Of a DNA stretch of 21,353 nt, positions 1,257-14,216 are shown one piece after another. How positions within the stretch are numbered: position 1 is the stretch's first letter; the number at the start of each line of letters is the position of its first letter. The stretch lies in UHGV virus genome UHGV-0019869, one strand, 5' to 3'. The stretch comes from a virus. The translations under genes were made by a program, and so were the position numbers. Under the pieces are notes generated by a model, which ran no database searches, was not told the DNA's origin, and saw nothing but the letters and a program-made list of their open reading frames with translations.

Positions 1257-3062
1257 TTATAGGTTTTCGAGTTTGTTCAATCTTTGCTCTAACCCCTCTA
1301 TCCTTGAAAATGCAACATCTATAGCCTTTGTAACAAACGGTATAACCTGTTCGTAGGCAATTGTTTTTACATCGCATCCATTGTTTACTAGATGATCTTG
1401 ATATATACCACAGTCAATTCCAAGTCGATCAAGTAATTCTTTAACTTGCTGTGCAAGATACCCGGCATGTTCTCTTTTCCTTTTTCTACTGCCATCTTTT
1501 TCATGTTGATGAATTCTAGTTTCAAAAATCGGATTGCCATTAGAATCATCACCAATTTTTACATTGTATTCTTCTATATAATCATCACGAAAATCCCACT
1601 TATAAAAATATGGGATTATTCCACGGACGAATGATACAGCAAGTTCTCCGTCTATTATTCGTTTATCTGCTTTATCACGCTCATCAGACCGAGTTTGCAC
1701 CGTACCATATACATAAACTGTCTGAGAAGAATTTCCTAACTGAATCTCATGATCTCCACCAACTCTGGCACGGCAGCCTAAAGCTACACAATTTAATTTC
1801 TCTTTTGCAGGTGTCCCATCAATCAAAAACCTACCAGCTTGATGTCCAAGATATACTAATTGGGTTCCAGTAGTCTCACTATCTCCTGACGCTGCACCAA
1901 CAAAAACATTATCACTTCCTGTTGTTAAATTAAAGCCGGAAGCCCTACCAATAAGAACTGAATCATTCATTTTTGTTGCTTTATATCCTGCTTGCATCCC
2001 ACAAAAAACAACACCATTTAATCCATTCTGTGACCATGCAGCTTGATACCCTATAGCAACAATATTATTGGGAGATTCCCCATATGAAGACAAACCAAGA
2101 GAAGCCTCACGTCCTAGTGCAACGTTTCCAGAACCATCCACATTTCTAAATAAGGCAGAGCGACCTGCAGCAAGATTATTACCGCCAGTTCCCGTCTCAG
2201 CACCAGAGAATGCTCCTATATAGGTATTACCACCACCAGTTGAGTTATTTTGCATTGCTGCTTGACCGACAGCAACGTTATCTCTTCCTGTTGTTGTTCG
2301 TGACCCAGCATCCGTACCAACTGAAACATTTCTCTCTCCTGATGTTAATAGTTTGCCAGCGTTATAACCAACCACTACATTATAACTACCGGTTTTATAG
2401 TTGGCATAAGAAGAACTTTGAGCGTAAATAAAAATATTACAACTACCTGTAGTTAACAGTGCTCCAGCCTCATGTCCAAGTAGAACATTGCGCTGTCCTG
2501 TTGTAAGGCTTGCACCGGCTCGTCTACCAATACCAGTATTTTCCGCACCAACAGCCTCATCTGACTCGTTACCTATAATTGATGATCCTGCTCCAACTCC
2601 GAAAAAAGCATTATTTTTCGCATATTCATTAGAAGAAAATGCATCAATTCCCCATACCGTATTACTTGGGTCAGCATAACCAGGAGAATTTTCACCAGAA
2701 AAATTTGTTAATTCCTGCCTTAACTGATCTGGAGCATATTTCATTACATTTGGGAAATAGTGCTGCTGAGAGCCATACGCATCAAAAATCGCCATTGAGT
2801 GATTTTTTATAGTCGCAAACTTACCGAATTGACCATTCAATACAGGTTGTCCAGCTTGACTTATTTTTATTGGTTGAGAAACCTTAATATATTTTCCATT
2901 CTCATTCTCAAAATAAACATCCACTTGATTATCTGGATTAGTCGGATCGGTATCAGGCTTCCCGATATAAATGCTTCCATTCGATACTGATTTAAATGTT
3001 CTTGACATTGTGAACAATTGATTAGGCATGGAAACTATAATGTTAGGTATAATGTCTGTCAT
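1257..3062 (-). CDS. Mosaic tailspike, 601 aa: P22 gp9-like N-terminal head-binding domain, Gly-rich repeat central domain, C-terminal intramolecular chaperone (peptidase S74-like) domain
   Basis: The N-terminal ~110 aa (MTDIIPNIIVSMPNQLFTMSRTFKSVSNGSIYIGKPDTDPTNPDNQ...HSMAIFDAYGSQ) closely resembles the P22 tailspike head-binding domain. The centre carries repeated G-x-x-A-G / TTG motifs. The C-terminus has SDERDK followed by GYLAQQV and IAYEQVIPFVTKAIDVAFSRIEGLEQRLNKLE, matching the autoproteolytic chaperone domain of endosialidase and T5 pb1-type fibres. GGAG RBS upstream of the ATG at 3062. Confidence 0.9.
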   Translation of the reverse strand: MTDIIPNIIVSMPNQLFTMSRTFKSVSNGSIYIGKPDTDPTNPDNQVDVYFENENGKYIKVSQPIKISQAGQPVLNGQFGKFATIKNHSMAIFDAYGSQQHYFPNVMKYAPDQLRQELTNFSGENSPGYADPSNTVWGIDAFSSNEYAKNNAFFGVGAGSSIIGNESDEAVGAENTGIGRRAGASLTTGQRNVLLGHEAGALLTTGSCNIFIYAQSSSYANYKTGSYNVVVGYNAGKLLTSGERNVSVGTDAGSRTTTGRDNVAVGQAAMQNNSTGGGNTYIGAFSGAETGTGGNNLAAGRSALFRNVDGSGNVALGREASLGLSSYGESPNNIVAIGYQAAWSQNGLNGVVFCGMQAGYKATKMNDSVLIGRASGFNLTTGSDNVFVGAASGDSETTGTQLVYLGHQAGRFLIDGTPAKEKLNCVALGCRARVGGDHEIQLGNSSQTVYVYGTVQTRSDERDKADKRIIDGELAVSFVRGIIPYFYKWDFRDDYIEEYNVKIGDDSNGNPIFETRIHQHEKDGSRKRKREHAGYLAQQVKELLDRLGIDCGIYQDHLVNNGCDVKTIAYEQVIPFVTKAIDVAFSRIEGLEQRLNKLENL

Positions 3063-3129
3063 TTAATTTGCTCCAGATACAAGGAATCGCCGCAGCATGG
3101 CTACGGTTGGTATTTGTTTGGTTTTTGAA

Positions 3130-3146
3130 CTACGAAAATTTCGTAG
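3130..3146. promoter_or_regulatory. Perfect 17-bp palindrome ctacgaaaatttcgtag between the ant terminator and the tailspike start, flanked by 8-bp inverted repeats (ccgcagca at 3090-3097, tgctgcgg at 3177-3184)
   Basis: Dyad symmetry read directly from the sequence. Function unknown; it could be an operator or an RNA structure upstream of the tailspike gene. Confidence 0.3.
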
Positions 3147-3198
3147 TGCTATCCATCAAGGCCATCGCCGCTTAGTTGCTGCGGTGAATTTTGGGCAT

Positions 3199-3222
3199 AA
3201 AAAAACCCAGCCTAAGCTGGGT
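3199..3222 (-). terminator. Rho-independent terminator downstream of ant (stem cccagc / gctggg, 4-nt loop, 7-nt U-run on the minus strand)
   Basis: GC stem-loop at 3206-3221 directly followed on the minus strand by the run complementary to AAAAAAA at 3199-3205, about 20 nt after the ant stop codon. Confidence 0.6.
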
Positions 3223-3240
3223 CGTTGCGTTGGTTATCTG

Positions 3241-4143
3241 TCAGTAGTTATGTACTGAAGGAGGTAATTCTTTATTCTTAAGTCTCATCCATGCGGAAAG
3301 ATTCGTTGGTCCGTCTGGCTCATTAATATCAACATCTCGTGTATGGTTGATTAAAACATCTCTCGCCATATCGATAATACGGGAGAACTCATAACCGCAG
3401 TCATGACATCTGCCGGAATAGTTCGATTGAATTTGTTTTAGCGCCGGATACAGTTCGCGGAATAATGCCTGTGAGCGGTTGGCATAATCCCATAACCATA
3501 CAAGGCTGTTTGCTTCTTTTGCAGAAAGCTCGTTGGTTTTCTTCTCTTGTTTGCCGATGAACTCACCTTCAAGCACTACCCTGTGGATGTACTCTACAGC
3601 TTGCGGTATCTGAGATGCATCAAGCTCTTCAATACTTTCCACATTGAAACGCTGATGAATCATTGCATAAGCTTCTGGGTACATTAGATGCTTTTTGCTG
3701 ACTAGCATATTTACAGCATCACGAAGCGGAGTCCTGTCATCAACAGATGTTTTCTTACGTGCATTTTCTGCCTTTCCCTTCGTCCAGTAGTCATGCAGCA
3801 CAGTAAAGCATTCTTCCTGGTACTGAATCAGTTTATCGCGGATGTCAGCACGAACTTTCTCAGGGTTGATGCTGAACAGCCATCCATTTAACTTCTTCAA
3901 AGGAAGGCAGAGTAGCTTACGAAGCTTACCATCAGCGGCAACCATGTTCATATGAACACAGTTGAATTTGCTAATCTGCTTCATGAGTTTTGTTTGCTGC
4001 GTTGACCAGCTCATTCCAAGGTTTTCAACGATTGGCTTCATCGCAACATATGCAACTCCGGCAGCCATGGCGGTGATAATTTGCTGACCATTGAAAGGCA
4101 CGTAAGAGGTGTTCACTGCTTCTAAAATTGCTATACTATTCAT
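3241..4143 (-). CDS. ant: Antirepressor Ant, 300 aa
   Basis: From [68 protein letters not shown] the translation matches my recollection of the P22 Ant N-terminus and its 300-aa length. The ORF track's 322-aa version starts at an upstream in-frame Met inside the sar/terminator region, so I chose the ATG at 4141-4143, which has a GGAG RBS. Confidence 0.88.
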
Positions 4144-4144
4144 G

Positions 4145-4216
4145 TTGGTTTTTCTCCACGGATTTACTGACAACCGAAGCCCTGACTGTTCCCGCAGTTG
4201 GGGCTTCACTGTTTTT
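4145..4216 (+). ncRNA. sar: Candidate Sar-like antisense RNA (about 70 nt) complementary to the ant RBS and start region
   Basis: A plus-strand -10-like TATACT at 4133-4138 lies inside the ant 5' end, and a plus-strand hairpin (gaagccc 4176-4182 / gggcttc 4201-4207) is followed by TTTTT at 4212-4216. Position and size match the P22 sar antisense RNA architecture. The -35 element is weak. Confidence 0.4.
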
Positions 4217-4427
4217 GTAAGTCACTGTAGTTATAAAGCCACTGACCACTCATTCTTGCTTTGATTGACTCTACTGAATCACGGCAAGGAATGATTCCAC
4301 CTGACATCATTCTGATCTCCGTAAATTCACCGCTCCTTATCGACTCAATGCCATTAACGTTAACTAAAGATTTACCTCTACCAAGTGCATTCTCATAGCC
4401 AATCTCATCAACCTCAATAAACTTCAT
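4206..4427 (-). CDS. Hypothetical 73-aa protein inserted between arc and ant
   Basis: The ATG at 4425-4427 overlaps the arc TGA stop (ATGA overlap), with a purine-rich stretch upstream. No family recognised. This ORF occupies what I recall as a short arc-ant intercistronic region in P22. Confidence 0.5.
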
Positions 4428-4582
4428 ACCGTTATCCCCTCTCTCTTCAGGCTGTCCATCACTCGCTTATAAATCTCAGAGTTAACAGATCGCCCGTTCT
4501 CTTCAGCTACCTTGCGCACCAAATCCAATACTTCTTTAGGCCACCGCAAATTGAACTGCGGCATTTTGCTCATTCCTTTCAT
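4424..4582 (-). CDS. arc: Arc repressor (ribbon-helix-helix), 52 aa
   Basis: MKGMSKMPQFNLRWPKEVLDLVRKVAEENGRSVNSEIYKRVMDSLKREG is near-identical to P22 Arc as I recall it. The true start is the internal Met of the 73-aa ORF-track entry (ATG at 4580-4582), with a GAGGT RBS. Confidence 0.9.
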   Translation of the reverse strand: MKGMSKMPQFNLRWPKEVLDLVRKVAEENGRSVNSEIYKRVMDSLKREGITV

Positions 4583-4596
4583 ATTTACCTCACAAT

Positions 4597-4617
4597 ATAG
4601 GTCCACGGTGGACCTAT
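4597..4617. promoter_or_regulatory. Mnt operator: perfect 21-bp palindrome ataggtccacggtggacctat
   Basis: Perfect dyad read from the sequence. Its core GGTCCACGGTGGACC matches the P22 Mnt operator as I recall it. It lies in the divergent arc/mnt control region, which should contain the Pant and Pmnt promoters. Confidence 0.7.
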
Positions 4618-4624
4618 TGAGAAT

Positions 4625-4645
4625 ATAGTAGAGTGCTTCTATCAT
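4625..4645. promoter_or_regulatory. Arc operator: atagtagagtgcttctatcat (imperfect dyad with TAGA half-sites)
   Basis: Matches the 21-bp P22 Arc operator as I recall it, located between the arc and mnt start codons. Confidence 0.7.
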
Positions 4646-4672
4646 GTCAATACACTAACTTGGGGTGATGGC

Positions 4673-4927
4673 ATGGCTAGAGACGATCCGCACTTTAACT
4701 TCCGTATGCCTTTGGAAGTAAGAGAAAAATTGAAATTAAGAGCAGAGGCTAACGGAAGGTCAATGAACTCTGAGTTATTACAAATCGTTCAGGATGCTCT
4801 CTCAAAGCCATCATCAATTGTAGGCTATCGAGACGAAGCTGAGCGAGTCGCGGATGAGCAATCTGACGTTGTTAAGAAGATGGTCTTTGAAACGCTGAAA
4901 AATATTTATAGCAAAAGTAAGTTATAG
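4673..4927 (+). CDS. mnt: Mnt repressor (ribbon-helix-helix), 84 aa
   Basis: MARDDPHFNFRMPLEVREKLKLRAEANGRSMNSELLQIVQDALSKPS... is near-identical to P22 Mnt as I recall it. Divergent from arc, as in immI. Confidence 0.9.
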   Translation: MARDDPHFNFRMPLEVREKLKLRAEANGRSMNSELLQIVQDALSKPSSIVGYRDEAERVADEQSDVVKKMVFETLKNIYSKSKL

Positions 4928-4976
4928 GCTTATGACGTATAGTTAACCATATCGATATTGGCTCGCGTGATGACAA

Positions 4977-5696
4977 ATGAAAAAAAGTAATGGACTCACA
5001 TTAAAACTTGACGGAACCACCCCTGGCCAGCTGTCAATGGCTAAGTTGGTCAAGTATATGTCTGCTCTCGTAGATCTATACGGTTCTGCAGATTCTGTTC
5101 ACTTCGACTGTGTAAGTGAAGGATCGGCTGACTTAAATGCATGGGTCGATAATGATATTTGTTATAACGCTGTCATAGCAAGGGCCTCTCTCTCAGCCAA
5201 AGAGAAATCACCCGCGTATCAAAAAATTGTTAATTTACTGGAGCATGATGGTTTTTCAGCGAAACTACTCGGACGAAACCACTCAACCATTATCGCATTC
5301 CCGCGAGTAAAAAAGGAGCCAATCCCTTTACTCATAACAAAAACGTCAGAAGTTCAAGGAAGGCTATACAGTGTTGGCGGAAAAGACAACTCAATACCTG
5401 TGCGTATTGAGGGAGCCAACGGTGAAACATTCAAGTGCGAGGCAACCCCTGATTTGGCGGCAGCTCTTGGGTCCCATCTATTCAAATATATTAGGGTTAA
5501 AGGAGATGGGTGCTGGGAAAAAAAGAACAACAAATGGGAGCTAAAGAAACTAAAAATAACTTCATTTGTATTGCTCAAAAAATCATCACTCAAGGATGCT
5601 ATTAATGCTATCAAGCAAGTTCCTGGAGATCAGTGGTCCGAGGAACGCGATGTTGATTCAATCCTTAGGACTCTGAGGAAGATAAATTGCGAGTAA
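4977..5696 (+). CDS. Hypothetical 239-aa protein, first gene of the accessory cassette downstream of mnt
   Basis: Long ORF in a markedly AT-rich segment (about 30% G+C in a sampled line, against 40-63% in sampled structural-gene lines). Its 3' end overlaps the next gene's start by 10 nt. No recognisable catalytic motif. Weak RBS. Confidence 0.65.
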   Translation: MKKSNGLTLKLDGTTPGQLSMAKLVKYMSALVDLYGSADSVHFDCVSEGSADLNAWVDNDICYNAVIARASLSAKEKSPAYQKIVNLLEHDGFSAKLLGRNHSTIIAFPRVKKEPIPLLITKTSEVQGRLYSVGGKDNSIPVRIEGANGETFKCEATPDLAAALGSHLFKYIRVKGDGCWEKKNNKWELKKLKITSFVLLKKSSLKDAINAIKQVPGDQWSEERDVDSILRTLRKINCE

Positions 5697-6235
5697 TTTT
5701 AGATACCAATATTCTGGTATACCTACTATCAGATATAGAACACGATTATAGATTATCTGACCCTATACTTGGTTCTGAGATTCCAGATGCCAAAAGAAGA
5801 GCAGAAGCTCTTGTTGATCGAATAGATAACAAGAACGGGACAATCATCGTTCCAACTCCTGTATTGGCGGAGTTTTTAGTTGGAATCCATAAAGATTACC
5901 AACAAGAAAAACTGAATGTTATCAAATCGTTATCGTGCTTCGAAACTGTATCATTTGATGAGTTGGCTGCTATTGAATGCGCATCGATACCAACATTAAA
6001 AGAATTAAGGAAAATTAGCACAGAAGGTACAGCAAACAAAATTAAGTTTGACAGACAAATAATAGCAATTGCAAGAGCAATTAATGCTGACGAGGTATGG
6101 ACTCATGATAAGGGAGTGTTTGAGCGTTGCAAAAGTCTCAATATTCCTGTGTTCACATTATCATCAATAGAACCAATTCCGGTTCAAAGTCTCATGGAGT
6201 TCTTACACGATTCAGACGATCAGAGATTACACTAA
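5687..6235 (+). CDS. PIN-domain nuclease-like protein, 182 aa (TTG start)
   Basis: The N-terminal ILDTNIL motif with an invariant Asp, and downstream acidic residues (AEFLVG; FDRQIIAIARAINADEVWTHDKG), are typical of VapC/PIN folds. The TTG at 5687-5689 is preceded by GAGGAA at 5675-5680. Confidence 0.75.
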   Translation: MRVILDTNILVYLLSDIEHDYRLSDPILGSEIPDAKRRAEALVDRIDNKNGTIIVPTPVLAEFLVGIHKDYQQEKLNVIKSLSCFETVSFDELAAIECASIPTLKELRKISTEGTANKIKFDRQIIAIARAINADEVWTHDKGVFERCKSLNIPVFTLSSIEPIPVQSLMEFLHDSDDQRLH

Positions 6236-6251
6236 AATATAATTTTTATGC

Positions 6252-6279
6252 ATCCGTGATAATTACATCCGTCACGGAT
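6252..6279 (+). promoter_or_regulatory. Inverted repeat atccgtga (12-nt spacer) tcacggat between the PIN gene and the small membrane-protein gene
   Basis: 8-bp perfect inverted repeat at 6252-6259 and 6272-6279, read from the sequence. No T-run follows, so it may be an operator or attenuator rather than a terminator. Confidence 0.3.
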
Positions 6280-6362
6280 ACATAAAGCTATAGCCAAAAG
6301 TGGACAAACCTTTATCTCACTCCAAACCATCTGGTATCCTGCACAAAACTAAGGAGGTTGGT

Positions 6363-6590
6363 GTGAAGCGATGGTTCCTCATAATTACTGTTTTCGCGAT
6401 CATTTACACTATTTTCCCTGCATTAAAAGCACCAATGCAAATAATTTCGCTTGCAATAATTGCAATTGGTGCTTTCATTGCAGTAGCCGTACTTGTGTTT
6501 AAGGTTTTAAAGTTTTTAGTTTGGCTATCAAAAGATGATGGATGCAAAGTTCATCAAGAAAAAGAAGGCAAAATAACCAAAGTTGACTAA
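6363..6590 (+). CDS. Small hydrophobic (predicted two-helix membrane) protein, about 75 aa
   Basis: AGGAGG at 6352-6357 lies 5 nt before the GTG at 6363. The product WFLIITVFAIIYTIFPALKAPMQIISLAIIAIGAFIAVAVLVFKVLKFLVWL is strongly hydrophobic. The ORF track's alternative start at 6300 lacks an RBS. The stop overlaps the convergent gp16-like stop. Confidence 0.55.
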   Translation: MKRWFLIITVFAIIYTIFPALKAPMQIISLAIIAIGAFIAVAVLVFKVLKFLVWLSKDDGCKVHQEKEGKITKVD

Positions 6591-8710
6591 CTGTCACTAG
6601 CGAGCCATGTAATAATCCCCGTGCGGGCAATGGTTTTTGCTTCATCTGTTGATAAGGTTTTCTCCCATCTCTTAAATGCCCCAGATTGCATCAGTTTCCT
6701 TTCTATTACGCGTCTCACTTCTGCTCTGTCTACAGGTGCGTTTTGCAGGCGAAATAGCATTGATTTAAACTCAGGAGAAGACAGTAGAGCATCAGCAGCC
6801 TTTATCCTGCTTGTTTTCCCTGACATCAATGCTGACGTTATCACCCCTGTTGCACCTACACCAGGAAGACCAGATAAGCTTGTAATACCTTCCGCCGCAG
6901 CAGCTTTTGAGGCTATTCCATAAATTTTTGCGAGACTACCCTTTTCTTTCAGAAAGTTATTAACTTGCTGATCCACAAGACTACTAGCATACTGCTTACC
7001 AGTATTGAGTCTATTCATAGCCTTAGCTGCTTGATAAATCGTATCAAGGCGCTTTGATGCATCTGTGCCAATAGCATCACGGAGAGCCTTCATATTGGCC
7101 CCATTGCGTGACATTCCGTTATACCATTTTACAAATCCATCAACCCCTAATTGCTGACCTGGTGATTTAGCATAGCTGGTAAATGCTTTATTCATTGAGG
7201 TGAGCGCAACTTCCTGCCGCATATCCTTTGGAATTGACTTCATTAATTGCCTAAAGTCACCACCGTTTCCTTTTGCCATATTAACAACGGCACTTTCAAC
7301 TTTTGGAATTGCTGATTGCTGAAGTTTTCTACCCAAAACGGTTACGGCATCATCTTCAATGGATTTTCGTGTTTTTACCAACTCCTTACCAAGCGTCCAT
7401 AACTCCCCTGCGCCATATTTTTCTGCGACAGCCTGTTGGTCATCTGTTATAGCCGCATATAACTTTTTAAGAACACCTGTTTCTTCATCCTTGAATGGGC
7501 CAGAGCCTTTGCCAATAGCTTGCCCAACCTGCTTTCTAGCGAGATCTAAACGCCCATACGTTGGCAAGGTGTTTGGATCAAGTCGGTTCAATGTCCGCTT
7601 CATTATTGGAGATAATTCATCAATTCCACCTATATCATCAGCAAAATCCTCTAAAAAATTCAATGTATTAGTTGCCTCAATCCGGTCTCTTACAGGAACC
7701 TTTTCGGCAATTTTGTTGTAGATGTTATCTGACTGATTTTGTAATGATGAAATGGTTTTATCAAAATTATCTGCAAGCCTGTCAGAAACCAGTTGCTTAT
7801 CAAGGCTTCCCCCAAATGAAGTTATCATTTCATCAGCTTTTCTTCCTAATTCAGTAATAAAACGCTTATGCGCCTCACTAATCTCTGTTCCAGGGAGACT
7901 TGCCACTGCATTATCAAGAGCCCTGACAGCAGGATTATTAGAGATCATGCCTGGAGTGGCATAATTTTCCAGTTCTAGCTCACGAATAGCATTTATCGCG
8001 TTAAAATCAGGATTAACTTCATCGGCGAAATCTTGAATAGCTCGTTGCCCGCCGATAAATTTATTGTCCATTGCGCCAGCAGCTTTCTTTAACGTTGCTT
8101 TAGATGATTTACTACCCATCCCTACGGATGAGCGATAAATATCTCCGGCACTATTTTTAATTTTTCCTGCAATCTTCCCAAGAGCTGGACCAACAATCTC
8201 TGCTACAGGGCCAGCCACAGCGCCAATAGCAGCTCCAGAAGCAACATCGCTATTTGTTCCATTGGCTACAATAGCCCCTTCTCCAGCACCAAGCCCTGCG
8301 GCGGCAGCCAGCCTTGCCGCCCCTTTCGGAACCTGAGAAATAATCCCACCACCACTAACAAATGGTGCTGCTTGTCCAACGAACTCACCAACATCTTGTA
8401 CGGTTGATGGTTTTGCCGCTAACTTCTGCTGTAGAGACTGAATTGCGGCTTGCTCTTCTGGTGTCATATCCTGAAATAGACCAACACCTTTACCAACATC
8501 CATCAATCCACTGAGAACGCCATACATAAAACGGTCGAAACCGTTAGCATTATTAACAACATTTTCCTGTCTGGAATTTTCCTCTGGTGAAACCAAAGGA
8601 GATTGCTGCTGTTCTGGTTGGGCATCAAGCACAAAGCCATCAGGAAGCTGTGAGTTATCAGGCTGTTCATCCAGAACAAATCCCTCTGGTAAACCTACAT
8701 TGGTTGCCAT
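6587..8710 (-). CDS. Ejection (DNA transfer) protein, P22 gp16-like, 707 aa
   Basis: Last gene of the late operon, in the gp7-gp20-gp16 order. Gly/Ala-rich central region; N-terminal duplicated LP(E/D)GFVLD(E/A)QP motif. Confidence 0.8.
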
Positions 8711-10044
8711 TGTCCGTTCCTGTAAATAATTTTCTGACCAGTTTTAGGATTTTTCGCGGTCATACCTTCTCGAAATGTTTGACCGCCAGATGTTGCTTGT
8801 TGTGTCTGTTGTTGCGCAGGCTGCTGAATATCTTCATACAGCTTGGCTTTTCTGGATTGCAATTGCTTAGTTAGTCCGCTGGGGAGAGAATCTCCATAAG
8901 TTGAAAGATAATCATCCATTTGCTGGTTAAACTTTTCGCCTTCAGTATTTGCCATCAGTTTTGAGGTGTTGATTAAGTCTTGGACTTGCTCATTATTCAG
9001 CATCTTGCCGTTAGATAATTGGCTAACATAGTTACCAAGTGTGCCGAATATTCCATCAGTGCGTTTTACCTGCACTTGCTCACCTTCGCGTACCACAGAT
9101 TGCGGATCCAGCGATTTCATATAGTTGAAAATCATTCCCAACTGCGCGGCTGGAGTGTTGCGCTTCCCAAGGGCTTGTAGGTTGTCAGAAGCACTGCGCA
9201 TTGCAGAATAATTCTTTGAGAACCCATTAATATCACTATTCAGATCTCGAACAAGTTTTGGGTCAATCTTTCCGCTTTCCTGTTGTTTCATCCCTAATTC
9301 CTGCAACTTCAGGGCTACGTTATCATTATGCATTTGTGCCCGCTGAGCCCTGTCTAGTTGAGCGTTTTGGATATTTGCCCATCCTCTCGCGTTCTCCATG
9401 TCAGCCTGACGGATGCTTTCATCCAATCGCCCTTTCTCAAGTTGGCGACCAACCATCTTATCCTGATAATCCAGCATTTTATCCGGACCAACAGCCCCTA
9501 GCGTCATAGTAGTCAGCATGTGTGATAGCTGCTCTGGATTCTGGATACCTGTCTGAATCATCCAGTCAGCATTAGCACCAACGCGATTTAACCTGTCCTT
9601 GTTGTCAGTAATGAATTTACTGTAGGCTTCCGGTCCCTGAGAAAGAGCGACGTTAGCCCTCATGGCTAAATCGCCCATATCGTTACGTTGCTGCTCATTA
9701 AGACCGGAAAACGCCTGTTGTGCCTGTGCAACAAACGCTGGATTTTCCTTGGCAAACTTAAATAGTCCCGATGGATCACCAGAAGCCCATGCATCAGCGT
9801 GAACCTTATTGAACGCACTAATCGCTTTCTGTTGCTGTTCCTGATTGTAAATATCAGCAACTCCAGCCAGACCACGTAACGCGGTCAGACCAACGTTATT
9901 TGCACCTGAGCGAGCCAGTTCATTGTTTTCGCGGATCAGACCAAGCGTTGCGTTAATGTCGCTTGCCTTTGGCGCATTCTCGTTTTGCGCACCAATGCCA
10001 GCCAGAAAACCACCAGAATTAATACCCTGTTGCCACGTAGCCAT
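8695..10044 (-). CDS. Ejection protein, P22 gp20-like, 449 aa
   Basis: Position and size in the conserved P22-like order; Gln/Ala-rich product overlapping the neighbouring genes. Confidence 0.8.
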
Positions 10045-13585: not shown

Positions 13586-14047
13586 TCACGTACTCGAATC
13601 ATCTTTCTCGATGTAAAACCGATTCCACGTAAACGCGCTTTTGTTACCACTACCGCGAGGCATGTCATTTCGCCGCTCAAGTGGTGGTATTTTGGTTAAA
13701 GCGATACAGATTGTTTGATATGCACTGTCAGCAGCGGTAAGGAGAGCGTCTGACGGCTGAATGACGTTATCCATGCACACTTGCACAGCGAGTTTCAAAG
13801 CGACGCCATCATTTGCCCATGCAGGGATACCTGAATCATCGTCAGGTAACGGCATGATGCCGTTTTCTGTATCAGCAAACTGATACCCAAGCTCGATACC
13901 TTTCTCCTGCCATGCTGCCATCATGTCTTCGAGGTCATTAATGGCATCTTCAATTGCCTGAGGGTCAGCATCTATCAACGTGGCATTGGAATACAGCCCG
14001 GCTTTTCGTAAAGCCTTAAGAACGAGATCACCCTTCGTTTTCGCCAT
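13586..14047 (-). CDS. Head-completion protein, P22 gp4-like, 153 aa
   Basis: The N-terminus MAKTKGDLVLKALRKAGL resembles P22 gp4 (KTKGDLV...ALRK). Conserved position. Confidence 0.85.
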   Translation of the reverse strand: MAKTKGDLVLKALRKAGLYSNATLIDADPQAIEDAINDLEDMMAAWQEKGIELGYQFADTENGIMPLPDDDSGIPAWANDGVALKLAVQVCMDNVIQPSDALLTAADSAYQTICIALTKIPPLERRNDMPRGSGNKSAFTWNRFYIEKDDSST

Positions 14048-14216
14048 CTTCTTCCGCCTTAGCCACTTTTTGCTTCGTTGCGGTTTCTTCAGGGGTTTTT
14101 ACCCAGCCTTTTTTCAGGTGAGATTTAACTTCTTCGTCATCAACAATGATGTAATCGACAGCAAACTGACCACAGGTGATCATGTTGCCAGGCTTATAGA
14201 GCATTGTTCGTGCCAT
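14028..14216 (-). CDS. Small conserved hypothetical protein between the coat and gp4-like genes, 62 aa
   Basis: The ATG at 14214-14216 is preceded by GGGAGAAG. P22-like phages carry a small ORF at this position. The ORF track's longer 74-aa version starts inside the terminator hairpin. Confidence 0.5.
   Translation of the reverse strand: MARTMLYKPGNMITCGQFAVDYIIVDDEEVKSHLKKGWVKTPEETATKQKVAKAEEDGENEG

What the first reader, a model, noticed from the sequence alone, without database searches (positions are those of the whole stretch)
6252..6590. Small membrane protein gene with a strong SD and GTG start, converging on and overlapping the end of the ejection-protein gene
A perfect AGGAGG precedes the GTG at 6363, and the product is almost entirely hydrophobic. 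Its stop overlaps the gp16-like stop on the opposite strand, so transcription from the two directions would collide. Small membrane proteins at this locus in temperate phages are classic superinfection-exclusion factors. An 8-bp inverted repeat sits in the 127-bp gap upstream.
Basis: partly seen in the sequence, partly recalled or inferred. Interest (0 to 1): 0.5.

Follow-up and report, generated by a model that had tools for sequence, protein, structure and literature searches.

The report
Small membrane gene in sieA slot
This is a real gene for a 75-residue inner-membrane protein that sits where phage P22 keeps its superinfection-exclusion gene sieA and uses the same start signals, so it is a good but untested candidate for a new blocker of phage DNA entry.

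Summary
AGGAGG (6352-6357), GTG (6363) and a 75-codon ORF ending TAA at 6588-6590 are all there. The ORF overlaps the stop of the convergent 707-aa gp16-like ejection-protein gene by 4 nt.

The gene is real:
- It belongs to PHROG 7294 (function unknown).
- Homologues at 56-59% identity keep the length, the frame and the overlap.
- dN/dS is 0.18-0.30 overall and at most 0.13 in the C-terminal tail.

The predicted protein has two transmembrane helices and a conserved charged tail, probably cytoplasmic.

Window 6332-6365 is 34/34 identical to the leader, Shine-Dalgarno site and start codon of P22 sieA. In other P22-like prophages the same leader and GTG drive at least 13 unrelated ORF families. 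By crude prediction, 12 of them are envelope-targeted, including SieA itself. So the locus is a swappable expression slot beside the ejection genes.

The 75-aa protein is not a SieA or T4 Imm homologue. Exclusion of incoming P22-like phages at the inner membrane is the best-supported function (about 0.4), but nothing here tests it. The main rivals are an antisense-RNA role like BTP1 STnc6030 and a generic envelope effect.

The upstream inverted repeat is really a hairpin with 15-nt arms. It belongs to the PIN cassette module, which assorts independently of this gene.

The parts
6363..6590 (+). Gene for the 75-aa membrane protein ('F75', PHROG 7294): GTG start, TAA stop. Predicted TM1 about residues 4-21, short loop K22-Q26, TM2 about 27-49, charged conserved tail 50-75.
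   Evidence: ORF and hydropathy. PHROG 7294 at E = 3e-49. Annotated as WP_000832789.1 'hypothetical protein' at 100% identity in E. coli. Homologues and conservation. dN/dS 0.18-0.30.
6332..6365 (+). Conserved 34-nt sieA-type leader: TGGTATCCT (6332-6340, resembling an extended -10 element, TGnTATCCT), CAAAAC, SD AGGAGG (6352-6357), spacer TTGGT, GTG start (6363-6365).
   Evidence: 100% identical to P22 and ending exactly at the annotated sieA start codon. Positions -31 to +3 are 0.91-1.0 conserved (except -20) across 32 different upstream contexts and 13 downstream gene families. Not structured as RNA (z = +1.4). The promoter role is my inference.
6245..6286 (.). Strong hairpin (15-nt arms, 12-nt loop) directly after the PIN gene. 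Probably a terminator or boundary element of the mnt-239aa-PIN module rather than part of the small gene.
   Evidence: It travels with the PIN cassette whatever gene follows (L005, L006). It is absent upstream of the same small gene in phages EC.P3 and E212. P22 has an analogous hairpin ('t mnt') upstream of the sieA leader.
6587..8710 (-). gp16-like ejection (DNA transfer) protein gene, 707 aa. It is convergent, and its TAG stop (6589-6587) overlaps the small gene's TAA.
   Evidence: The same 4-nt overlap is found in all 13 loci with the leader-driven form, in 6 contexts of the ATG-start allele, and in the divergent homologues L138 and L141.
4977..6235 (+). Context only: the 239-aa ORF plus the PIN-domain ORF (TTG start at 5687, overlapping the 239-aa ORF by 10 nt), downstream of the mnt-like repressor gene (4673-4927). 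This is an independent module.
   Evidence: Pfam PIN at E = 4e-10; Arc + Mnt domains in the 84-aa protein. The cassette is followed by different slot genes in other E. coli genomes.

Best explanation
Window 6363-6590 encodes a real 75-residue inner-membrane protein. It has two transmembrane helices, most likely with both ends in the cytoplasm, and a conserved charged C-terminal tail.

It occupies the sieA slot of a P22-like E. coli prophage, the position immediately downstream of and convergent with ejection-protein gene 16. It is served by the same 34-nt leader, Shine-Dalgarno site and GTG that P22 uses for sieA. That leader is a portable expression socket: in related prophages it drives at least 13 unrelated, mostly envelope-targeted proteins, one per slot.

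The most likely function is that of a prophage-expressed moron acting at the inner membrane to stop incoming P22-like phages from delivering DNA. That would make it a functional analogue, not a homologue, of SieA and T4 Imm, interfering with the gp20/gp16 conduit.

Shown here: the gene is real and under purifying selection, it has a membrane architecture, it shares the slot and leader with sieA, it assorts independently of the upstream cassettes, and it is tightly linked to one gp16 lineage.

Inferred: expression in lysogens, topology, and the exclusion activity itself.
For: Gene reality:
- PHROG 7294, E = 3e-49.
- 21 database homologues; the commonest cluster (P0006) was seen on 619 contigs.
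- Present in 34 of 5426 complete E. coli genomes.
- Divergent homologues P0022 and P0025 (56-59% identity) are still 75 aa with no indels.
- dN/dS is 0.18-0.30 overall and 0-0.13 in the tail.
- Two independent initiation contexts converge on the same codon: AGGAGG-N5-GTG here, and GGGAGG-N5-ATG in the common allele.

Membrane protein:
- Hydropathy peaks of 2.1 and 3.0, and a K/R bias at the N-terminus and after TM2.
- Invariant residues I7, F11, I14, Y15 and P19 fall on one helical face, and A34/A37 are invariant in TM2.

Slot identity:
- 34/34 nt identity to the P22 sieA leader and start.
- The immI context is confirmed by sar RNA (87.7 bits) and Arc/Mnt domains.
- The leader drives SieA type A and 12 other families, 12 of 13 with TM segments or signal peptides. 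All end between -4 and about 60 nt from the gp16 stop.

Experimental background from the literature:
[quoted passage not shown] Escape mutations map to the C-terminal regions of gp16 and gp20, and 85 bp upstream of the start suffices for expression (PMC10883804).
- In BTP1, a transcript from the equivalent position excludes BTP1, with escape mutations in the 3' end of the gp16 homologue (PMC7067206).

Other support:
- GC content is 34.6% against 45.9% for the window, as expected for a moron.
Against: - There is no sequence or profile similarity to SieA or T4 Imm, no reportable match in PADLOC (one at E = 0.052, 10.9 bits), Pfam (one at E = 0.083) or NCBIfam, and no solved relative.
- No experiment on any member of this family was found in the papers searched and read.
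- Position-based inference is weak. One slot family (140 aa) is cytoplasmic, and the ant moron also carries cargo with other roles.
- No promoter was demonstrated. The annotated P22 PsieA (-61 to -31) lies in sequence that is not conserved here.
- The commonest allele lacks the sieA leader and sits 28 nt behind another ORF.
- The strict linkage to one gp16 lineage is not what is seen for SieA, which pairs with a gp16 type that also accepts four other slot genes.
- The AF2 model was uninformative: a single long helix, pTM 0.37.
Confidence: 0.42

Rival explanations
1. The RNA is the active agent, alone or together with the protein. With no intergenic space and no terminator, the mRNA must run antisense into the 3' end of the gp16-type gene. 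It could then silence incoming or resident late transcripts of phages sharing that gp16 sequence, as proposed for BTP1 STnc6030.
For: - The stops overlap by 4 nt.
- No convincing or conserved intrinsic terminator lies within 600 nt downstream on the + strand.
- BTP1 STnc6030 arises at the equivalent position, is highly expressed in lysogens, excludes BTP1 but not P22, and its escape SNPs lie in the gp16-homologue 3' end (PMC7067206).
- The gene is always linked to one gp16 lineage, which a sequence-specific antisense mechanism would predict.
Against: - The ORF itself is under protein-level purifying selection, with a highly conserved tail, so it is at least also a protein gene.
- All four BTP1 escape SNPs change the gp16-homologue protein. 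The BTP1 transcript also contains an overlooked 23-aa hydrophobic ORF with a GGAGGG SD, conserved in HF4s. The BTP1 precedent may therefore itself be protein-mediated.
Confidence: 0.12
2. It is a host-benefit or generic envelope moron that does not target injection. The small hydrophobic protein would perturb the membrane, for example by triggering Rcs and capsule synthesis or altering a receptor or transporter. The result would be broad, indirect phage resistance or another lysogenic-conversion trait.
For: - Near-random hydrophobic helical peptides readily give phage defence in E. coli through the Rcs pathway and colanic acid (commentary PMC12704755 on Frumkin et al.).
- The slot families are unrelated orphans, mostly hydrophobic or secreted. 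One is YobH-like.
- No known defence domain was found.
Against: - The cytoplasmic tail and one face of each TM helix are strongly conserved across 56%-identity homologues. This argues for specific contacts rather than generic membrane stress.
- The gene is placed consistently next to the ejection genes, in the slot of a proven injection blocker.
Confidence: 0.2
3. It serves the phage's own gp16, for example as an immunity or handling factor for this membrane-active ejection-protein lineage, or as a modulator of late transcription into the tailspike gene, rather than acting against other phages.
For: - It co-diverges with one gp16 lineage. The small protein is 57% identical where gp16 is 74-78% identical, and the overlap geometry is conserved.
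- It was never seen with another gp16 type in about 50 contexts.
Against: - Roughly a fifth of E. coli prophages with this gp16 3' end carry a different slot gene (YobH-like or the 140-aa family), so gp16 does not need it.
- It lies antisense to the late operon, so it is poorly placed for co-expression with gp16.
- Overlapping stops alone explain the physical linkage.
Confidence: 0.1
4. It is a membrane toxin or effector: an abortive-infection partner of the adjacent PIN cassette, a holin-like protein, or a type I toxin held in check by an antisense RNA.
For: - Its architecture (two TM helices, N-in/C-in, charged C-tail) resembles class II holins and small membrane toxins (the comparison is my own knowledge).
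- A PIN-domain ORF lies 127 nt upstream.
- A weak minus-strand promoter-like site at 6597-6570 points antisense into the gene.
Against: - The PIN cassette and this gene assort independently, and at least five different upstream neighbours were seen.
- No holin or toxin family matched.
- The gene is not in the lysis cassette.
- The promoter-like site scores 9 of 12, at chance frequency (9 found, 7.5 expected).
Confidence: 0.08
5. It is not a functional gene: a chance ORF behind a leftover sieA leader.
For: It is short, AT-rich (34.6% GC) and an orphan outside P22-like prophages.
Against: - It is conserved at 75 codons without indels down to 56% identity.
- dN/dS is 0.18-0.30.
- Two independent SD/start contexts converge on the same codon.
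- It forms a PHROG family.
Confidence: 0.03

Closest known systems
P22 SieA (superinfection exclusion protein, types A/B/C; Leavitt et al. 2024, PMC10883804)
   Same: - Same genomic slot: convergent with and immediately after gene 16, on the mnt side of the immI / ant moron.
- Identical 34-nt leader, SD and GTG.
- An integral membrane protein whose best-conserved segment is a predicted cytoplasmic C-terminal region.
   Different: - 75 aa and 2 TM helices, against 162-164 aa with 3 TM helices in type A (types B and C carry N-terminal extensions of about 30 and 40 aa with one further predicted TM).
- No detectable sequence or profile similarity.
- No FxRYPxEAxxFNK motif.
- Its stop overlaps gp16, whereas P22 has a 22-nt gap.
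- Tied to one gp16 lineage.
- No functional data.
T4 Imm (83-aa inner-membrane immunity-to-superinfection protein)
   Same: Similar size and layout: two hydrophobic segments followed by a short charged C-terminal tail. Imm blocks entry of superinfecting DNA at the membrane (record annotation).
   Different: No sequence similarity. Imm is an early gene of a lytic phage rather than a prophage moron, and its target phages use a different injection machinery.
BTP1 STnc6030 (exclusion 'antisense RNA' between the gp16 homologue and tailspike genes; Owen et al. 2020, PMC7067206)
   Same: The transcription unit occupies the same place and orientation relative to gene 16 and runs antisense into its 3' end. 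It contains a small hydrophobic ORF (23 aa) with a strong SD that overlaps the gp16 stop region.
   Different: There is no sequence relationship. BTP1 lacks the sieA-type leader and the ant moron. STnc6030 was described as non-coding, and its activity has been demonstrated, whereas nothing has been tested for the window gene.
HK97 gp15 and other moron-encoded membrane Sie proteins (comparison from my own knowledge; HK97 gp15 is cited in PMC10883804)
   Same: A small prophage-expressed membrane protein encoded by a moron next to virion or injection genes, proposed to block DNA entry at the inner membrane.
   Different: A different phage type (a siphovirus that uses the tape-measure protein and PtsG). 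No homology was tested or expected.

Membership tests
SieA (P22-type superinfection exclusion protein) | Sequence homology to SieA type A, B or C | tested here: not met
   BLASTP against P22 SieA gave E = 3.6. hhalign of the family profile against a type A profile gave probability 0.1%. Types B and C were not tested directly.
SieA (P22-type superinfection exclusion protein) | About 160-200 aa with 3-4 TM helices and the conserved motif FxRYPxEAxxFNK near the C-terminus (PMC10883804) | tested here: not met
   The protein is 75 aa with 2 hydrophobic segments. Its tail is [26 protein letters not shown], with no such motif.
SieA (P22-type superinfection exclusion protein) | [quoted passage not shown] | tested here: met
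   The leader and start codon are identical to those of P22 sieA.
SieA (P22-type superinfection exclusion protein) | Blocks DNA injection by P22-like phages, with escape mutations in gp16/gp20 | not testable with these tools
   Needs plating, lysogenisation and K+ efflux assays.
Moron within the P22-like 'ant moron' (PMC2629481) | A non-assembly gene between gene 16 and the tailspike gene, variable among related phages, with its own expression signals and atypical composition | tested here: met
   At least 13 alternative genes occupy the same place behind the same leader. GC is 34.6% against 45.9%. A hairpin and leader lie upstream. The promoter itself was not demonstrated.
PHROG 7294 | Full-length match to the family profile | tested here: met
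   E = 3e-49, residues 1-75 of 75, function unknown.
T4 Imm family | Sequence similarity to Imm | tested here: not met
   No local alignment with E <= 100. Only the architecture is alike.
Class II holin | Two TM helices with a charged C-tail, AND encoded in the lysis cassette next to an endolysin, AND homology to a holin family | tested here: not met
   The architecture is compatible. However, the gene is in the immI / ant moron, antisense to the late operon, and no holin family matched in Pfam, PHROGs or NCBIfam.
Type I toxin-antitoxin | A small hydrophobic toxin plus a dedicated cis-antisense sRNA overlapping its mRNA | tested here: inconclusive
   The only antisense partner seen is the gp16 late mRNA. 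One chance-level minus-strand promoter-like site lies at 6597-6570. No Rfam match was found in 3000-9000 apart from sar at 4144-4210 and a sub-threshold ctRNA_pGA1 match (26.9 bits, gathering score 45) overlapping it at 4148-4222. Toxicity was not tested.

The most novel reading that the evidence does not exclude
The conserved 34-nt promoter-proximal leader, SD and GTG is a portable 'expression socket' beside the ejection-protein genes. P22-like phages would use it to capture, or even give birth to, orphan envelope proteins, yielding a rapidly turning-over repertoire of injection blockers. On this reading the 75-aa protein is a gp16-lineage-specific blocker that co-evolves with the neighbouring gp16 gene. 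BTP1 'STnc6030' would then be the mRNA of a 23-aa member of the same functional class rather than a non-coding antisense RNA.
Probability: 0.15. Interest if true: 0.75.

Novelty: new member of a known kind. Interest (0 to 1): 0.5.

Why it matters
SieA is the only gene at this locus with a demonstrated function, and only about a third of sequenced P22-like phages carry it (PMC10883804). Here, the same leader and start codon drive a dozen other unrelated small proteins, nearly all envelope-targeted, including this 75-aa protein.

If these are alternative injection blockers, they form a ready panel of minimal proteins for probing how the gp7/gp20/gp16 conduit crosses the inner membrane. That question was left open in the SieA study, which could not explain how exclusion tolerates so much diversity in the ejection proteins.

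The conserved socket also gives a simple sequence handle for mining such genes, some of which annotation pipelines miss. The 62-aa family is unannotated in RefSeq strain PEC011.

Finally, the result suggests a cheap experiment to re-examine the BTP1 STnc6030 mechanism.

Tried and rejected
- **Structure prediction.** AlphaFold2 on the family alignment gave one continuous helix (pLDDT 76, pTM 0.37). This was judged uninformative for a TM hairpin, so no fold search was run.
- **Solved structures.** A profile search of PDB sequences found nothing at E <= 1.
- **Remote homologues.** An exhaustive profile search of 1.84 billion representatives found only the family itself, one divergent 75-aa member, and two long repeat proteins judged spurious.
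- **Genome scan.** The genome-contig scan for the divergent member found nothing.
- **Family libraries.** Pfam, NCBIfam and PADLOC gave no significant hits for this protein or for the other slot families. The exceptions were YobH for the 68-aa family and coiled-coil noise.
- **Obligatory PIN operon.** Rejected, because the two modules assort independently.
- **Terminator after the gene.** Only a weak 5-bp hairpin at 6794-6811, not conserved in divergent loci.
- **Structured leader or riboswitch.** Rejected (z = +1.4; no Rfam hit).
- **The 96-aa reading from GTG 6300, and the 99-116-aa database versions.** Rejected as gene-caller extensions. The upstream sequence differs between contexts, and homologues start at the same codon as the 75-aa form.
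- **Mapped sieA transcription start.** A literature search found only a 'putative' PsieA.
Full report
**1. Observation**

The window is a P22-like prophage of E. coli. Window 4600-6700 is 100% identical to three complete E. coli chromosomes. It lies in reverse orientation relative to the P22 map:
- tailspike gene, 1257-3062 (-)
- ant, 3241-4209 (-), with sar RNA at 4144-4210 (Rfam 87.7 bits)
- arc, 4424-4645 (-)
- an Arc/Mnt-domain repressor gene, 4673-4927 (+)
- a 239-aa ORF and a PIN-domain ORF, 4977-6235 (+)
- the ORF in question, 6363-6590 (+)
- the gp16-, gp20- and gp7-like ejection genes on the minus strand

The two ORFs overlap by 4 nt, and the upstream gap is 127 nt.

Two details need correcting. 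First, only residues 1-49 are hydrophobic, in two segments; residues 50-75 form a charged tail. Second, the 8-bp inverted repeat is the core of a hairpin with 15-nt arms at 6245-6286, which folds far better than shuffled sequence on both strands.

**2. Is it a gene?**

Yes. Several lines of evidence agree.
- The protein matches PHROG 7294 end to end (E = 3e-49, function unknown).
- RefSeq annotates it as a hypothetical protein.
- A search of 5.8 billion proteins found 21 relatives at 84-97% identity, all from E. coli or Salmonella. The commonest cluster (P0006) was seen on 619 contigs.
- The gene is present in 34 of 5426 complete E. coli genomes.
- An exhaustive profile search added one divergent member (P0022), which led to P0025.

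The divergent proteins are 56-59% identical to the window protein. They are still exactly 75 aa, with no indels.

Pairwise dN/dS is 0.18-0.30 for the whole gene and 0-0.13 for the tail. Among the + strand frames, the annotated frame has the lowest pN/pS.

The common allele starts with ATG behind a different SD (GGGAGG) at the same codon where the window allele starts with GTG behind AGGAGG. Two independent initiation signals therefore point to one start codon. This also disposes of the longer 96-116-aa readings.

The invariant residues are informative:
- I7, F11, I14, Y15 and P19 lie on one face of TM1.
- A34 and A37 are invariant in TM2.
- The tail motif is KFLxxLSKxDxCKVxQExxGKITxxD.

This pattern fits a protein that makes specific contacts rather than a merely greasy peptide. 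The distribution of K and R (N-terminus 2, loop 1, 6 after TM2) suggests that both ends are cytoplasmic (this is an inference).

**3. What the locus is**

Megablast against phage genomes showed that window 6332-6365 is 100% identical to P22 over 34 nt. The match ends exactly at the annotated sieA start codon. The flanks on both sides are unrelated to P22.

In E. coli genomes the same mosaic joints recur. Matches to the PIN cassette stop at window 6365-6368. Matches that begin with different upstream sequence start at about 6328-6332. Many prophages share only the 34-47 nt leader.

I scanned IMG/VR for the last 22 nt of the leader, CAAAACTAAGGAGGTTGGTGTG. In every locus held I then translated from the GTG.

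The same leader and start codon drive 13 unrelated ORF families:

| Length | Predicted type |
|---|---|
| 62 aa | 2 TM |
| 68 aa | YobH-like, signal peptide |
| 75 aa | 2 TM (this one) |
| 99 aa | signal peptide |
| 103-106 aa | N-terminal TM |
| 107 aa | N-terminal TM + coiled coil |
| 109 aa (first type) | N-terminal TM + coiled coil |
| 109 aa (second type) | N-terminal TM + coiled coil |
| 116 aa | 4 TM |
| 129 aa | signal peptide |
| 140 aa | cytoplasmic |
| 149 aa | 1 TM |
| 164 aa | SieA type A, 3 TM |

Twelve of the 13 are envelope-targeted by crude hydropathy and signal-peptide inspection. Apart from SieA and the YobH match, none has a Pfam, NCBIfam or PADLOC assignment.

The part of the leader that my search pattern did not impose, TGGTATCCTG at -31 to -22, is still 0.91-1.0 conserved across 32 different upstream contexts. 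Every one of these genes ends between -4 and about 60 nt from the stop of a convergent gp16-type gene, with rare exceptions. One contig carries two such cassettes 1.7 kb apart.

The region between genes 16 and 9 was already described as a fast-changing 'ant moron' (PMC2629481). SieA was described as having three sequence types, present in 22 of 66 P22-like phages (PMC10883804). In the papers I searched and read, I found no description of a shared leader driving alternative small envelope proteins.

**4. Expression (inferred)**

The leader is unstructured as RNA (z = +1.4) and has a consensus SD at optimal spacing.

TGGTATCCT has the geometry of an extended -10 element (TGnTATCCT). A divergent locus, L138, keeps TATCCT and the SD/GTG block but has a spacer 12 nt longer. 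That is what one would expect of a -10 element followed by a 5' UTR of variable length.

The promoter annotated in P22 lies at -61 to -31. It is called putative in the literature, and it falls in sequence that is not conserved here. The transcription start is therefore not established.

A strong hairpin sits between the upstream operon and the leader, both here and in P22 ('t mnt'). This suggests a separate transcription unit.

In the commonest allele, by contrast, the gene lies 28 nt behind a 186-aa ORF in the mnt operon and has no sieA leader. There it is probably co-transcribed with the mnt operon.

Nothing terminates the mRNA before it runs antisense into gp16.

**5. Linkage**

Upstream neighbours of the 75-aa gene vary:
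- the PIN cassette (this window)
- a Panacea-domain pair (phages EC.P3 and E212)
- 92-aa plus 186-aa ORFs
- a ClpP-like gene
- a 120-aa ORF

The downstream partner is always the same gp16 lineage, with the same 4-nt stop overlap. This holds even where gp16 has diverged to 74-78% identity and the small protein to 57%.

About a fifth of E. coli prophages with this gp16 3' end carry a different slot gene instead. Conversely, the P22-type gp16 pairs with five different slot families. I read the linkage mainly as a consequence of the overlapping stops. A functional pairing with gp16 is not excluded.

**6. Function**

Sequence gives no direct answer.
- No similarity to SieA.
- No similarity to T4 Imm, although Imm has the same small two-segment-plus-tail layout.
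- No solved relative.
- An uninformative AF2 model.

The argument for superinfection exclusion rests on position and context:
- The gene is in the same slot, with the same expression signals, as a proven inner-membrane injection blocker whose escape mutants map to gp16 and gp20 (PMC10883804).
- It is a membrane protein with a conserved, probably cytoplasmic tail. SieA's conserved motif is also predicted to be cytoplasmic.
- Nearly all alternative occupants of the slot are envelope proteins.

A second precedent is BTP1. A highly expressed transcript, STnc6030, arises between the gp16 homologue and the tailspike gene and excludes BTP1. Its escape SNPs are all non-synonymous and lie in the 3' end of the gp16 homologue (PMC7067206).

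The authors classed STnc6030 as non-coding after excluding ORFs longer than 60 aa. On that strand, however, there is a 23-aa hydrophobic ORF (MERDLLNFVFLIFGLVVGKLLFA). It has a GGAGGG SD, overlaps the gp16 stop region, and is retained with the same start and stop in phage HF4s at 83% nucleotide identity.

This precedent cuts both ways. It supports exclusion as the role of transcripts from this position. It also offers an RNA-based rival for the window gene.

Another rival comes from work showing that near-random hydrophobic peptides easily give phage defence through Rcs and capsule (PMC12704755). A generic envelope effect therefore cannot be dismissed.

**7. Verdict**

My confidence on the individual points is:
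- membrane protein: about 0.9
- sits in a conserved sieA-type expression slot: about 0.9
- excludes P22-like phages at the inner membrane: about 0.4, the leading hypothesis but untested

It is not a member of the SieA family. I class it as a new member of a known kind, namely prophage moron-encoded small membrane proteins at the P22 exclusion locus. The wider slot architecture is the more interesting by-product.

Noticed in passing
L137 (BTP1, LT714109.2) 14011-14082, minus strand: The exclusion 'antisense ncRNA' STnc6030 of prophage BTP1 (PMC7067206) contains a 23-aa hydrophobic ORF (MERDLLNFVFLIFGLVVGKLLFA). It has a GGAGGG SD and overlaps the last 12 nt of the gp16-homologue gene. Phage HF4s keeps the same start and stop at 83% nucleotide identity. 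The published escape SNPs all change the gp16 homologue, as SieA escape mutations do. STnc6030 may therefore be the mRNA of a tiny membrane exclusion protein.
   Followed up: partly
window 6332-6365, and loci L017-L136: The sieA leader, SD and GTG form a portable cassette that drives at least 13 unrelated ORF families in P22-like prophages. Several are missed by annotation, for example the 62-aa 2-TM ORF in E. coli PEC011 (L006, 4764-4952). Contig L087 carries two cassettes 1.7 kb apart, driving the 129-aa and 149-aa families.
   Followed up: yes
window 4977-6235 (+): A two-gene cassette lies downstream of the mnt-like repressor gene. It comprises a 239-aa ORF (PHROG 19868, no Pfam hit) overlapping by 10 nt a 182-aa PIN-domain ORF with a TTG start (Pfam PIN at E = 4e-10; a weak VapC-like NCBIfam hit). 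It looks like a toxin-antitoxin or defence pair carried as moron cargo. It is found unchanged in front of at least three different slot genes.
   Followed up: partly
window 6245-6286: A hairpin with 15-nt arms (14 of 15 paired) lies directly after the PIN stop (z = -5.1 on the + strand, -4.3 on the - strand). Only the minus-strand version is followed by a U-rich tract. It may therefore attenuate late-operon read-through towards the tailspike gene, or act as a bidirectional boundary. P22 has an analogous hairpin ('t mnt') at the same relative place.
   Followed up: partly
window 4594-4650: Face-to-face near-consensus promoters lie between arc and the mnt-like gene: minus strand TTGACA-17-TATATT (11 of 12) and plus strand TTGAGA-17-TATCAT (10 of 12). 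This is the Pant/Pmnt arrangement of P22 immI. sar RNA is also present at 4144-4210 (Rfam 87.7 bits).
   Followed up: no
L004 (NZ_CP091756.1) 4988-8075: In one E. coli genome that is 100% identical to the window over 4600-6700, an IS3-family insertion truncates the gp16-type gene. The small membrane gene next to it remains intact.
   Followed up: no
L002, L016 and L014 (loci related to the window): The variable segment between mnt and the slot carries other defence-like cargo in related prophages: a Panacea-domain (SocA-like antitoxin) pair, ClpP-like protease genes, and a P63C-domain gene. The whole ant moron behaves as a cargo hotspot.
   Followed up: partly
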